Below, piece after piece: positions 20,194 through 51,546 of a stretch of 64,000 bases of DNA. The position numbers and the translations under genes are program-made. The stretch lies in assembly GCA_963726255.1 (NCBI GenBank), contig CAVSBL010000002.1, forward strand, positions 1,408,001-1,472,000, written 5' to 3'. The notes beneath the pieces were generated by a model that saw only the letters and a list, made by a program, of their open reading frames with translations, made no database searches and had not been told where the DNA came from. The DNA is from Candidatus Bathyarchaeota archaeon (lineage in GTDB: Archaea > Thermoproteota > Bathyarchaeia > 40CM-2-53-6). Each line of letters begins with the position of its first letter. Within the stretch, counting starts at the first letter, position 1.

Positions 20194-20739
20194 TCAGTAA
20201 ACTTTTCTGATTCGCGCGATCAGGGACGGTCCGATTGCGCCGAGTAAGATTGCGGTCGTCAACTCGTGGGCCAGGCCGAAAGGATAGGGGCTAACGCTGC
20301 CCGTAATGAATGGAACGTAGAGGGCCAGGACCGCGCCCAGCCACGGGTAACTGAAAAGGAGAGCATCAATAACGGATGTCCCAATATCGAATAACATTGT
20401 AAGAAAGAAACCCACGATCGCCATCCTCCATCGACTAAACGAGCTTGTACGATGCCATAACAAACCCGCGAGTAACCCTACAACGGCCATACAGCTCGAC
20501 GTCTCCAGAGTCCATATACCCGCACCATAGGGGCTGACCAAGTCGCTAAGCGTCATAGAAAGCCAACCAACAGCAAACCCTGCCAAAGGGCCACCCACCA
20601 CACCACTAACGATCACGAGAAAAGCAATGGGCTTCACGTTAGGGGGACCCCAAGCGAGGGCGAACCTGAACGCAACGTTCGCTGCTGAAAGCGAAGCCAC
20701 GAGAGCCAAAAGCTTAGTCTTGCTTGGCACTGGAACCAC
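20194..20739 (-). CDS. ECF transporter S component-like membrane protein
   Basis: PPNVKP...GPLAGFAVG...SD motif, about 5-6 TM segments. Confidence 0.7.
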   Translation of the reverse strand: MVPVPSKTKLLALVASLSAANVAFRFALAWGPPNVKPIAFLVIVSGVVGGPLAGFAVGWLSMTLSDLVSPYGAGIWTLETSSCMAVVGLLAGLLWHRTSSFSRWRMAIVGFFLTMLFDIGTSVIDALLFSYPWLGAVLALYVPFITGSVSPYPFGLAHELTTAILLGAIGPSLIARIRKVY

Positions 20740-32514: not shown

Positions 32515-32704
32515 TGGCGGGCCCGCCGGGATTTGAACCCGGGACCCTTCCCCAAGAAGGCTTCTCAGCCGGTTTCTTTTCGGGTGGCTTCCCATGGGTT
32601 CGAAAAGCCCAGAGGTAAAAGCGTCATCGACACCAGTCTGGCGTCTCCGATGCTCTACCTTTTCAGGATCCAGACTTGAAAGGATCTGACTGAGCTACGG
32701 GCCC
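32515..32704 (-). tRNA. tRNA-Lys(UUU) with four introns (17/17a, 30/31, 37/38, 43/44)
   Basis: Removing 32661-32687, 32623-32646, 32586-32615 and 32548-32579 gives a 77-nt cloverleaf GGGCCCG TA GCTC AGTCAGGTA GAGC A TCGGG CTTTTAA CCCGA GGGTC CCGGG TTCAAAT CCCGG CGGGCCC G CCA; each intron has BHB-type pairing. Confidence 0.9.
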
Positions 32705-33923: not shown

Positions 33924-33995
33924 ACTCGGGACCATCCTCTCGAAACACACAAGCATTTGGTTAGCCTTTCTTGTAGAGGAGTGACGACCGCGGGT

Positions 33996-34099
33996 TGGCG
34001 CCCTTCGCCAGGAGAAGGCTAGCTGCTCCTTTGGGCGGGATTCGAACCCGCGTCGACGACGTGACAGGCCGTCATCCTAGACCACTGAACGACCAGGGC
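33996..34099 (-). tRNA. tRNA-Asp(GUC) with intron at 68/69 in the acceptor stem
   Basis: Removing 34004-34031 restores acceptor pairing GCCCTGG/CCAGGGC plus G73 and CCA (76 nt); anticodon loop CTGTCAC. Confidence 0.9.
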
Positions 34100-34312
34100 A
34101 TCGGCAACTCAGAAATCCCTGAGCCAGCTTAAAGCATTGCTACAGCATAGGCACTAGGCGCATCTTACTTGTGTAAGGATGGAATAAGATACGGACTCAT
34201 TGTCGACTATTCTCTTAACCATCGTCGCGCTGCTGATCCTCGTCCCAGTGATACTAGTCTACTTTCGTTTTCGTCAACGCCTACTGCAACGAATTCTCAA
34301 AAACTCCTGATC

Positions 34313-38794: not shown

Positions 38795-38909
38795 TGGCGG
38801 GCCCGCGGGGATTCGAACCCCGGATCCCAGGCTTTCGCCGCGAACGCTCCGAAGGCTTACACGAATCGGTTCCATCTCTGTGTCTTAATCCTGGCTCGAC
38901 TACGGGCCC
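38795..38909 (-). tRNA. tRNA-Arg(UCG) with two introns (29/30, 37/38)
   Basis: Removing 38857-38877 and 38834-38848 gives anticodon arm CAGGC CTTCGGA GCCTG; A20 present; GCCA end; 79 nt. Confidence 0.88.
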
Positions 38910-43461: not shown

Positions 43462-44025
43462 ATGGAGAACAGCCCCGCGCCCGTTCCTCAAGCCCCTTCA
43501 CAGACACAAGAAAAGCCACTGTTCACTCCCTGGAACGCCGTGTCCGACGGGCGTTTGGTCTACTTACCATACAAATCTGAACTCATGGAGCTACGAGACC
43601 GGGGGTTCGGCGAACTCAGAAAAGACAAGCTTCTCCTGTCTTCATACGAATCCTTCTACCTCCTAGAGAAACAGAAAATTCGCGTTTTCACCAAGAAAAG
43701 CAACCGGGAGTTAGAGCTTCGAGACCTTGTCCGGACATTTTCCGTCGGTAGACCCGAGATCTGGATAAAGTACTTGGTCTACAGGGACCTACGGGACCGT
43801 GGTTACATAGTTCGCGAGTCCACCAGGGCTTTCGATTTTGACATTTACGGAAAAGGGCCGCTAAGGCGATTAATCTCGATCGTATACGAGGGTGGCGAGG
43901 CAAGCCTCAGGAAACTGAGAGGACTACTTCAATATTCTGACAAGGAAAAGAAGGAACTGATACTAGCAGTTGTAGACCGACGCACAGACATAGTCTACTA
44001 TACGTTGAACTCGTTAAAGGTCTAG
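43462..44025 (+). CDS. tRNA-splicing endonuclease, structural (non-catalytic) subunit
   Basis: LSSYESFYL, KYLVYRDLRDRGYIV, ILAVVD...IVYY EndA fold; lacks the G-x-K-Y-G Tyr and the catalytic His. Confidence 0.8.
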   Translation: MENSPAPVPQAPSQTQEKPLFTPWNAVSDGRLVYLPYKSELMELRDRGFGELRKDKLLLSSYESFYLLEKQKIRVFTKKSNRELELRDLVRTFSVGRPEIWIKYLVYRDLRDRGYIVRESTRAFDFDIYGKGPLRRLISIVYEGGEASLRKLRGLLQYSDKEKKELILAVVDRRTDIVYYTLNSLKV

Positions 44026-51144: not shown

Positions 51145-51292
51145 TGGCGGGCCCGCGGGGATTTGAACCCCGGACTTCTGCACTGGCCTTCCAGTTCTAC
51201 AGCTTTTTCCGGGTGTTCCTTAGGGGGTTCGGCAACAATCTCCGCCTCTTTAAGCGGAGCCTGCCGCTCTATCCAACCTGAGCTACGGGCCC
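51145..51292 (-). tRNA. tRNA-Arg(CCU) with three introns (30/31, 37/38, 45/46); C at position 33
   Basis: Removing 51228-51260, 51205-51220 and 51176-51196 gives a 78-nt cloverleaf with GCAGC CCCCTAA GCTGT AGGTC; A20 present. Confidence 0.8.
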
Positions 51293-51382: not shown

Positions 51383-51546
51383 GCGGGGATACCCGAGCCA
51401 GGTCAAAGGGGCAGGACCACCAGCCCGCTGGTGGGGCCATACTTAAGATCAGAACTTGCCTTGGGCAAAGAGAAGGCATCCTGTGGCGTAGAGCCCACGT
51501 ATGGACGCGAAAGCCTTCAGGGGTTCGAATCCCCTTCCCCGCACCA
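51383..51546 (+). tRNA. tRNA-Leu(UAA) with introns at 30/31 and 37/38 and a probable third in the variable arm
   Basis: Removing 51416-51440, 51448-51477 and ~51492-51510/12 gives CAGGA CTTAAGA TCCTG, variable arm GGC-GTAG-GCC, A73 and CCA. Confidence 0.85.

What the first reader, a model, noticed from the sequence alone, without database searches (positions are those of the whole stretch)
33996..34099. tRNA-Asp with an intron in the 3' strand of the acceptor stem (68/69)
A 28-nt insertion AAGGAGCAGCTAGCCTTCTCCTGGCGAA (34004-34031) leaves a last exon of only 8 nt (GGGCGCCA). The geometry is clean: CGCC(63-66)/GGCG helix, CA|A bulge, AGGAG/CTCCT hairpin, AA|G. Archaeal non-canonical introns usually lie between the D- and T-loops, and I know of no report of one this close to the 3' end. 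Inference: splicing must precede RNase P/Z end maturation.
Basis: partly seen in the sequence, partly recalled or inferred. Interest (0 to 1): 0.88.

Follow-up and report, generated by a model that had tools for sequence, protein, structure and literature searches.

The report
Spliced intron near tRNA-Asp 3′ end
The only tRNA-Asp gene of this Bathyarchaeia archaeon is interrupted eight bases before its end by a 28-base intron of the ordinary archaeal enzyme-spliced kind, sitting at an unusual place and apparently needing the sequence just after the gene to fold for splicing.

Summary
On the minus strand, 34099-33996 is tRNA-Asp(GTC) with a 28-nt insert (34031-34004) between nt 68 and 69. That leaves an 8-nt last exon, GGGC-G-CCA.

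It is a genuine bulge-helix-bulge (BHB) intron, not a scar:
- It is the only tRNA-Asp gene in a 98.5%-complete genome.
- The insert is present in 22 of 22 same-genus genomes, in many other Bathyarchaeia families, and in one family of another class.
- Exons are 99-100% identical within the genus; the intron is 77% identical.
- All five pairs of the intron hairpin show compensatory changes.
- The exon-intron helix switches from CGCC/GGCG to CGGC/GCCG together with the T-stem.
- Intronless orthologues carry exactly the joined sequence.
- The genome encodes a crenarchaeal-type alpha/beta splicing endonuclease and RtcB.

New here: the 3' trailer carries a conserved, co-varying complement of the 5' strand of the T-stem. 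It occurs in 44 of 45 intron-bearing genes against 1 of 23 intronless ones.

No RNA data were available. The position is not the extreme: a relative's tRNA-Glu has one at 70/71. I could not confirm that 68/69 is unreported. This is a known kind of intron in an unusual variant, of moderate interest.

The parts
33996..34099 (-). tRNA-Asp(GTC) gene including the intron (104 nt; the mature tRNA is 76 nt with encoded CCA)
34032..34099 (-). 5' exon, tRNA nt 1-68
   Evidence: Identical (100%) over 68 nt in G014, G015 and G017. Mean pairwise identity 0.994 across 23 genus genomes.
34004..34031 (-). 28-nt BHB intron between nt 68 and 69
   Evidence: Mean identity within the genus is 0.771. Intronless orthologues lack exactly this stretch.
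33996..34003 (-). 3' exon: G69-C72, discriminator G73, CCA
   Evidence: invariant across 23 genus genomes
34034..34037 (-). Central helix H, exon strand: C63 G64 C65 C66 (normally part of the T-stem and the first acceptor pair)
   Evidence: It co-varies with the intron strand: CGCC/GGCG becomes CGGC/GCCG.
34006..34009 (-). Central helix H, intron strand: GGCG
34031..34033 (-). 5' splice-site bulge: C67 A68 | A
   Evidence: The cut after the second bulge base is inferred from BHB geometry (Yoshihisa 2014 passage).
34003..34005 (-). 3' splice-site bulge: A A | G69
   Evidence: The first base is always A and the second varies A/G/C/T in relatives. The minimum-energy fold instead draws a 2-nt AA bulge.
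34010..34030 (-). Intron hairpin h': AGGAG (34030-34026), 11-nt loop, CTCCT (34014-34010)
   Evidence: 5 of 5 pairs have changes on both sides, 97.7% of cells are paired, and 0 of 500 shuffles reach the observed value
34001..34002 (-). Short outer helix h, 3' strand: G70 G71, pairing with C62 C61 (34038-34039)
   Evidence: invariant, so uninformative
33989..33995 (-). 3' trailer 'clamp' ACCCGCG, complementary to C48-T54
34046..34052 (-). Partner of the trailer clamp: C48 and the T-stem 5' strand G49-G53, plus T54
34129..34133 (-). TTTAA, a possible TATA-like promoter box about 30-34 nt upstream of G1
   Evidence: The upstream sequences printed show CTTTAA conserved in most same-genus loci; its promoter function is inferred, not tested.
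43462..44025 (+). Structural (beta-like) subunit of the tRNA splicing endonuclease, 187 aa, lacking the catalytic His

Best explanation
This is the single, functional tRNA-Asp(GUC) gene of a Bathyarchaeia archaeon. It carries a protein-spliced BHB intron between nt 68 and 69, in the 3' strand of the acceptor stem.

Proposed folding of the primary transcript: the T-arm does not form. Its 3' strand plus C66 (CGCC) pairs with the intron's GGCG to make the 4-bp central helix. That helix is flanked by the bulges C67-A68|A and A-A|G69 and by the intron hairpin. The T-stem 5' strand is held by a complementary 7-nt stretch of the 3' trailer.

Proposed processing: the heterotetrameric alpha/beta endonuclease cuts in both bulges, and RtcB joins A68 to G69. 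Only then can the T-arm and the 7-bp acceptor stem form and the ends be trimmed.

Shown here: the gene, its borders, conservation, covariation of h', of H and of the trailer helix, and the presence of the enzymes. Inferred: the cleavage itself, its exact sites, and the order of events.
For: 1. Borders and product. Removing 34031-34004 gives a 76-nt tRNA with a perfect acceptor stem. Intronless Asp genes of other Bathyarchaeia read ...CCCG(C/G)CCAGGGCGCCA, the same as the joined exons, and score 52-57.7 bits in Rfam against 43.4 for the unspliced gene.
2. Essentiality. There is only one Asp locus in a 98.5%-complete genome. G014 and G017 each hold one copy of the 5' exon; G015 holds one full copy plus a 20-nt T-arm fragment.
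3. Conservation.
- 22 of 22 same-genus genomes carry the insert.
- 34 of 73 pattern hits in genome contigs have tRNA context, 31 of them titled Bathyarchaea or archaeon.
- 22 of 151 genomes sampled from the class, own genome included, give full-length model matches in families f1, f2, f5, f7, f9, f10, f16, f23, f25, f29 and f31.
- 6 of 7 genomes of family f47, in another class, also match.
4. Selection pattern within the genus (23 genomes). Identity is 0.994 for exon 1, 1.000 for exon 2, 0.771 for the intron, 0.582 for the leader, 0.975 for trailer nt 1-7 and 0.594 for trailer nt 8-20.
5. Structure.
- h': 5 of 5 pairs have changes on both sides, 97.7% of cells are paired, and 0 of 500 shuffles reach this.
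- H switches from CGCC/GGCG to CGGC/GCCG in the 13 loci whose T-stem pair 49:65 is C-G.
- The 5:68 pair co-varies across the intron: T-A in most, A-T in family f2.
6. Trailer helix. A contiguous complement of at least 6 nt to nt 46-55 lies within 30 nt after CCA in 44 of 45 distinct intron-bearing genes (median 8) against 1 of 23 intronless Asp genes (median 5). It follows the T-stem sequence (GACGCGGG with CCCGCGTC; GACCCGGG with CCCGGGTC) at spacers of 0-21 nt. The 3' domain folds into this rod at -30.5 kcal/mol, 44% of the ensemble, z = -2.11.
7. Enzymes. The catalytic EndA alpha subunit best matches the A. pernix chain 3p1z_B at 7.7e-41, with Y, H and K present. A beta-like subunit without the His lies in the window. 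RtcB matches at 8.5e-172.
Against: - No RNA evidence exists: no RNA run was listed, so splicing itself is inferred.
- The fold of the whole 116-nt precursor is not unusually stable (z = -0.66, 51 of 200 shuffles as good). The 3' domain is only moderately so (9 of 200).
- The minimum-energy fold draws a 2-nt AA bulge at the 3' site rather than the canonical 3-nt bulge. The outer helix h is only 2 bp.
- H and h are invariant in alignment A1, partly because the retrieval pattern demanded them.
- Many of the sequences are close kin, so raw counts overstate independence.
- Three families have a weak or unscored trailer complement: f29 has 6 nt at spacer 21, f31 has 5 nt, and f25 was not scored.
- One intronless gene also has a 7-nt complement (L141).
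Confidence: 0.88

Rival explanations
1. The intron is real and spliced, but the conserved trailer complement is not part of the splicing substrate. It could instead serve 3'-end formation or termination, block premature trimming, or be a vestige of how the intron arose.
For: Three intron-bearing families have only a weak or unscored complement. The spacer varies from 0 to 21 nt. The central BHB can be drawn without it. No experiment bears on it.
Against: It is found in 44 of 45 intron-bearing genes against 1 of 23 intronless genes. It changes in step with the T-stem 5' strand in different families, and also in tRNA-Met and tRNA-Glu genes that have 3'-acceptor introns. Within the genus it is conserved at 0.975 against 0.594 for the flanking trailer. 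Without it the T-stem 5' strand would compete with the intron for the CCCGC strand.
Confidence: 0.2
2. The insert is a scar of a mobile-element integration or another insertion in a decaying tRNA pseudogene, and a functional tRNA-Asp lies elsewhere.
For: tRNA 3' ends are common integration sites (general knowledge). ARAGORN and Rfam call only a damaged-looking 73-76-nt tRNA.
Against: No second Asp(GTC) gene or Asp-like sequence exists in the 98.5%-complete genome. The neighbours are housekeeping genes with no integrase. There is no duplicated tRNA 3' end. The exons are under strong purifying selection and the intron stems co-vary across families and classes.
Confidence: 0.02
3. The tRNA works unspliced, with the 28 nt tolerated as an extra arm or with the 3' end taken at 34025 as ARAGORN draws it.
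For: The Rfam score of the unspliced call still exceeds the gathering cut-off (43.4 against 29 bits).
Against: That model has three non-standard acceptor pairs and no CCA or G73 in place, while a perfect stem, G73 and CCA lie just beyond the insert. Intronless orthologues equal the joined exons.
Confidence: 0.02

Closest known systems
Non-canonical BHB introns of Thermoproteota (Crenarchaeota) tRNAs, including the 3/4 acceptor-stem intron of Thermoproteales (Sugahara 2008, as cited in passages of Yoshihisa 2014, PMC4090602)
   Same: Short protein-spliced intron. A 4-bp helix flanked by two 3-nt bulges, formed from exon-intron pairing. Located away from 37/38. The host has an alpha/beta endonuclease with broad specificity. 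Reviews state generically that such motifs occur in the acceptor stem (PMC6379350; PMC12397907).
   Different: This one lies in the 3' strand of the acceptor stem, 8 nt from the end. The positions spelled out in the passages I read are 3/4 and 20/21 to 59/60 'etc.'. It is conserved across a class, not confined to a few species. The outer part of the substrate appears to be supplied by the 3' trailer.
Split tRNAs of Nanoarchaeum equitans and Caldivirga, and permuted tRNAs of Thermofilum pendens and Cyanidioschyzon merolae
   Same: Leader and trailer sequences outside the mature tRNA pair to build the helices around a BHB that the endonuclease cuts (passages of PMC4090602; PMC3218864).
   Different: Here both exons are contiguous and in the normal order in one gene. 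The trailer pairs with an exon (the T-stem 5' strand), not with a leader, and is not itself removed at the BHB.
Intervening sequences of Asgard tRNA genes (bioRxiv 10.64898/2026.10.13.758758; abstract and passages)
   Same: Heavily interrupted tRNA genes with BHB-compatible inserts, many missed by standard callers. [quoted passage not shown]
   Different: Different phylum. Their acceptor-stem cases are only summarised in a supplement that I could not open. No trailer pairing is described in the passages I read.

Membership tests
Archaeal BHB (EndA/RtcB-spliced) tRNA intron | Central 4-bp helix formed between exon and intron | tested here: met
   C63-C66 pairs with GGCG. It co-varies to CGGC/GCCG in 13 loci.
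Archaeal BHB (EndA/RtcB-spliced) tRNA intron | Two 3-nt bulges on opposite strands, each holding a splice site | tested here: met
   CA|A and AA|G. Across 35 distinct sequences the 5' bulge reads CAA, CAT, CTA or CAG and the 3' bulge AAG or AGG; further relatives have ACG or ATG. Caveat: the minimum-energy fold slips to a 2-nt 3' bulge.
Archaeal BHB (EndA/RtcB-spliced) tRNA intron | Flanking helices h' (intron-intron) and h (outer) | tested here: met
   h' has at least 5 bp in 31 of 35 sequences and compensatory changes in all 5 pairs. h is only 2 bp (C61-C62 with G70-G71, invariant), extended by the trailer helix. The 'at least 2 bp' criterion is recalled from memory, not read.
Archaeal BHB (EndA/RtcB-spliced) tRNA intron | Joining the exons restores a canonical cloverleaf | tested here: met
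   A 76-nt product with a 7-bp acceptor stem, G73 and CCA; it equals the intronless orthologues.
Archaeal BHB (EndA/RtcB-spliced) tRNA intron | Host encodes the splicing endonuclease and the RtcB ligase | tested here: met
   an alpha subunit (Y/H/K present; best match the A. pernix alpha chain) plus a beta-like subunit, and RtcB.
Archaeal BHB (EndA/RtcB-spliced) tRNA intron | Intron excised and exons ligated in RNA | not testable with these tools
   No RNA run was listed; read laying was not used.
tRNA-Asp (GUC) | Cloverleaf with anticodon GTC in a 7-nt loop, and discriminator G73 | tested here: met
   ARAGORN, Rfam and the anticodon arm ACGGC-CTGTCAC-GTCGT. That G73 is an Asp identity element is recalled from memory.
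Integration scar / att-site duplication at a tRNA 3' end | Duplicated tRNA 3' segment and an adjacent integrase or mobile element | tested here: not met
   No duplication of the 3' end. The neighbours are a GTPase, an HtrA-like protease, an acyl-CoA synthetase, a peroxiredoxin and a methyltransferase.
Split or permuted tRNA gene | Exons in separate transcripts or in reversed order | tested here: not met
   Both exons are collinear within 104 nt.

The most novel reading that the evidence does not exclude
3'-acceptor-strand introns form a distinct, ancient class in Thermoproteota: 68/69 in tRNA-Asp and tRNA-Met, 70/71 in tRNA-Glu, and about 65-67 in a tRNA-Pro-like gene. In this class the splicing substrate is not the tRNA body but an alternative rod, in which flanking transcript sequence clamps the T-stem 5' strand so that the other strand can pair with the intron. 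That clamp is the 3' trailer or, in the tRNA-Pro-like gene, part of the intron itself. A mirror-image arrangement uses the 5' leader for 4/5 and 5/6 introns, and some tRNA-Asp genes carry four introns. This would hard-wire the order 'splice first, then RNase P and 3' trimming', and would be an undescribed way of making the last few nucleotides of a tRNA spliceable.
Probability: 0.45. Interest if true: 0.65.

Novelty: new variant of a known kind. Interest (0 to 1): 0.5.

Why it matters
- Annotation: standard tRNA finders mis-call this gene. ARAGORN and Rfam both end it inside the intron, so the sole tRNA-Asp of a widespread sediment and soil archaeal class is easily annotated as damaged or missed.
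- Reach of BHB introns: they can be kept for long evolutionary times, across families and in a second class, only 8 nt from the 3' end, and 3 nt in a relative's tRNA-Glu.
- Testable model: the 3' trailer may be an integral part of a cis-splicing substrate, which would fix the order of pre-tRNA processing steps. The proteins needed to test this are identified in the same genome.

Tried and rejected
RNA evidence: the look-up of sequencing runs listed no RNA holder.

Literature:
- Positions written with a slash cannot be searched. One search ('68 69') returned nothing, but searches show that this form does not match '59/60' either, so says nothing. One search ('68 and 69' and similar) found only irrelevant papers.
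- Searches found no paper describing a 3'-acceptor-strand intron or a trailer-assisted BHB in cis.
- Passages read: PMC4033280, PMC4090602, PMC8450103, PMC3218864, PMC3239211, PMC6379350, PMC12397907, PMC5829648, PMC3728597 and the Asgard preprint (abstract and passages).
- The primary catalogues could not be read: Marck & Grosjean 2003, Sugahara 2007 and 2008, and Randau & Soll (not held). SPLITSdb and GtRNAdb are not available. Supplements are closed. Supplementary Note 3 of the Asgard preprint and the supplementary tables of tRNAscan-SE 2.0 may list such positions. [quoted passage not shown]

Analyses that led nowhere or needed redoing:
- An off-by-one register (GCCC instead of CGCC) gave poor stems and was corrected.
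- MAFFT pushed the intron gap to the end of the alignment, so a spliced alignment was used instead.
- ARAGORN with -i gives unreliable intron calls in this genome and was used only as a pointer.
- 39 of 73 hits of the collection pattern were GC-rich bacterial sequences without tRNA context and were dropped.
- L029 and L143, L144 and L153 are other tRNAs and were left out of the Asp counts.
- L121 and L128 gave no regex hit.
- Further long-span weak model hits were not examined (for example in G038, G146, G111 and G128).
- The names of families f47 and f56 could not be determined.

Considered and rejected: integration scar, pseudogene, unspliced function (see the rival explanations). A group I/II or guide-RNA-bearing intron is also rejected, because 28 nt is too short.

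Full report
What is there. On the minus strand of the window, 34099-33996 reads as tRNA-Asp with anticodon GTC. The first 68 nt (34099-34032) run through the T-arm and the first three bases of the 3' acceptor strand (C66 C67 A68). Then come 28 nt, AAGGAGCAGCTAGCCTTCTCCTGGCGAA (34031-34004), followed by GGGC, G73 and CCA (34003-33996). ARAGORN and Rfam both stop inside the insert. The Rfam alignment marks three non-standard acceptor pairs and scores 43.4 bits. Without the insert the acceptor stem GCCCTGG/CCAGGGC is perfect.

Whose gene it is. The window lies in a 2.42-Mb assembly of 5 contigs, 98.5% complete with 9.3% contamination. Public records with near-identical copies of this locus are titled Candidatus Bathyarchaeia or Bathyarchaeota archaeon. 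The genome's tRNA genes are generally interrupted: ARAGORN in intron mode gives erratic calls, and only 18 Rfam tRNA matches appear. A BLAST of the computed spliced sequence and a scan for GTC anticodon arms found no second tRNA-Asp. The near-complete same-genus genomes G014 and G017 each hold one copy of the 5' exon; G015 holds one full copy plus a 20-nt T-arm piece.

It is a conserved intron.
- All 22 same-genus genomes carry the insert at the same place.
- In the genome collection, 34 of 73 pattern hits have the T-loop directly upstream. The other 39 are GC-rich bacterial sequences and were dropped.
- A covariance model built from 35 distinct sequences gave full-length matches in 22 of 151 genomes sampled from the class, in eleven families. 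Most other genomes gave 45-nt matches, that is, the same exons without the intron.
- In a sample of 151 genomes from the phylum, 6 of 7 genomes of family f47, in another class, have the same intron in tRNA-Asp.
- The intron is patchy. Other genera of the window's own family gave only weak or no matches; in the one locus I read there (G172), the Asp gene has no insert at this position.
- Within the genus the exons are 99.4% and 100% identical, the intron 77% and the leader 58%.

It is a BHB intron. C63-C66 pair with the intron's GGCG. On one side lies the bulge C67 A68 | A, followed by the hairpin AGGAG/CTCCT. On the other lies the bulge A A | G69, followed by G70-G71 paired with C62-C61.
- In the 35-sequence alignment all five hairpin pairs show compensatory changes; 97.7% of cells are paired, 0 of 500 shuffles reach this, and slid registers pair at 42-56%.
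- The central helix is invariant in that set, partly by construction. In lineages whose T-stem pair 49:65 is C-G instead of G-C, the exon strand reads CGGC and the intron strand GCCG (13 loci). That is a clean double change in an exon-intron pair.
- The 5:68 acceptor pair also co-varies across the intron: T-A in most, A-T in family f2.
- A review passage states that the BHB is a 4-bp helix with two 3-nt bulges, and that the first two anticodon bases lie in the helix of a 37/38 intron (PMC4090602). That places the cut after the second bulge base, as here.
- The genome encodes a catalytic EndA subunit closest to the alpha chain of Aeropyrum pernix (3p1z_B, 7.7e-41) with the Tyr/His/Lys residues, a second subunit without the His (in this window, 43462-44025), and RtcB. 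This is the heterotetramer type that reviews describe as able to cut non-canonical introns (PMC6379350).

The trailer. Directly after CCA comes ACCCGCG, complementary to C48-T54, which comprises C48, the 5' strand of the T-stem and T54.
- Folding the 3' domain gives one rod: the trailer helix, an internal loop, the short helix h, the 3' bulge, H, the 5' bulge and h'. Its energy is -30.5 kcal/mol, 44% of the ensemble, z = -2.11.
- A contiguous complement of at least 6 nt to nt 46-55 within 30 nt of CCA occurs in 44 of 45 distinct intron-bearing genes and in 1 of 23 intronless tRNA-Asp genes.
- It follows the T-stem sequence (GACGCGGG with CCCGCGTC; GACCCGGG with CCCGGGTC or CCTGGGTC) and sits 0 to 21 nt after the gene.
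- Within the genus, trailer nt 1-7 are 97.5% identical and nt 8-20 are 59% identical.
- My reading: the trailer holds the T-stem 5' strand so that the other strand is free to pair with the intron. Splicing would then act on a transcript that still has its trailer. This is inference from comparison. Kinship inflates the raw counts, but the pattern recurs in at least ten families and in three different tRNAs.

Limits. There is no RNA evidence. The whole precursor is not unusually stable (z = -0.66). The minimum-energy fold slips the 3' bulge to two bases. Helix h is minimal.

Known or new. Non-canonical BHB introns are well known. Reviews list 3/4 and 20/21 to 59/60 'etc.' and say generically that the acceptor stem can be hit. 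The tRNAscan-SE 2.0 methods anticipate introns near the 3' end. The Asgard preprint mentions a few acceptor-stem inserts. I found no description of a 68/69 intron or of a trailer-assisted BHB in cis. However, slash-written positions cannot be searched, and the primary catalogues, databases and supplements were out of reach. The position is not the extreme either: two genomes of family f56 have a tRNA-Glu with a BHB intron at 70/71 and a 3-nt last exon, again with a trailer complement.

Verdict. This is a real, ancient, functionally constrained BHB intron in an unusual place: a known kind in a new variant because of the trailer's apparent role. Interest is moderate.

Noticed in passing
window 43462-44025 (+): A 187-aa homologue of the tRNA splicing endonuclease lacking the catalytic His (beta-type structural subunit) lies 9.4 kb from the intron-bearing tRNA-Asp. 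The catalytic alpha subunit is elsewhere, at genome C2:748 kb.
   Followed up: partly
window about 20296-20445, 32515-32704, 38795-38909, 51145-51292 (all -), and a T-arm at 51519 (+): Further tRNA genes that default ARAGORN misses (it found only the Asp gene in the window) and that ARAGORN -i calls with long inserts. T-arms followed by a 3' acceptor strand and CCA are visible for those at about 32542, 38822, 51172 and 51519. The isotype calls are unreliable.
   Followed up: no
own genome C2:1889156-1889335 (+), outside the window: A tRNA-Pro-like gene has an insert of about 47 nt between the T-stem and the 3' acceptor strand (about 65-67). The insert itself carries complements of both T-stem strands. 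Its borders were not resolved.
   Followed up: partly
L115, L099, L024 (family f2 relatives): These tRNA-Asp genes are 167-174 nt long with four inserts relative to an intronless orthologue: after nt 4, in the D-arm, in the variable region, and at 68/69. The 4/5 intron draws a BHB whose helices use the 5' leader (hand-parsed). A passage of the tRNAscan-SE 2.0 paper says archaeal tRNA genes hold up to three introns.
   Followed up: partly
L028, L089 (family f9 relatives): A 5/6 intron in the 5' acceptor strand uses the same words as the 68/69 intron (CGCC/GGCG, AA|G). The two target sites (-1 to 5 CGCCCT, and 63 to 68 CGCCCA) look alike, which hints at duplication or transposition of an intron within one gene.
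   Followed up: no
L164, L167 (family f56, another class of the phylum): tRNA-Glu(CTC) has a BHB intron at 70/71 (H CCCG/CGGG, bulges GA|A and AG|G). The last exon is 3 nt, no CCA is encoded, and a CCCGCGTC trailer complement lies 16 nt downstream (borders hand-parsed).
   Followed up: partly
L129 (G043, family f13): A tRNA with anticodon CAT also has an intron at 68/69, with the CGCC/GGCG helix and a trailer complement directly after CCA.
   Followed up: partly
L053, L056, L077 (genome contigs records): Three contigs carrying this archaeal tRNA-Asp belong to MAGs titled as bacteria (Acidiferrales, Acidoferrum, Methylomirabilota). They are probably mis-binned archaeal contigs.
   Followed up: no
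L108, L082 (family f7 relatives): The 5' leader holds a CGCC-CTG-GGCG mini-hairpin followed by AAG just before the tRNA. It resembles the H helix plus 3' bulge of the intron. Its meaning is unknown.
   Followed up: no
own genome C1:7455, C5:6436, C2:2133717: The same sequence was picked up at these three places in the anticodon-arm scan. The small contigs C1 and C5 therefore share at least about 90 nt with a region of C2, which may mean a repeat or redundant contigs.
   Followed up: no
L157 (G192, family f47): At the gathering threshold Rfam listed another tRNA in this locus but not the intron-bearing tRNA-Asp. Such genes can therefore be missed altogether by standard annotation.
   Followed up: no
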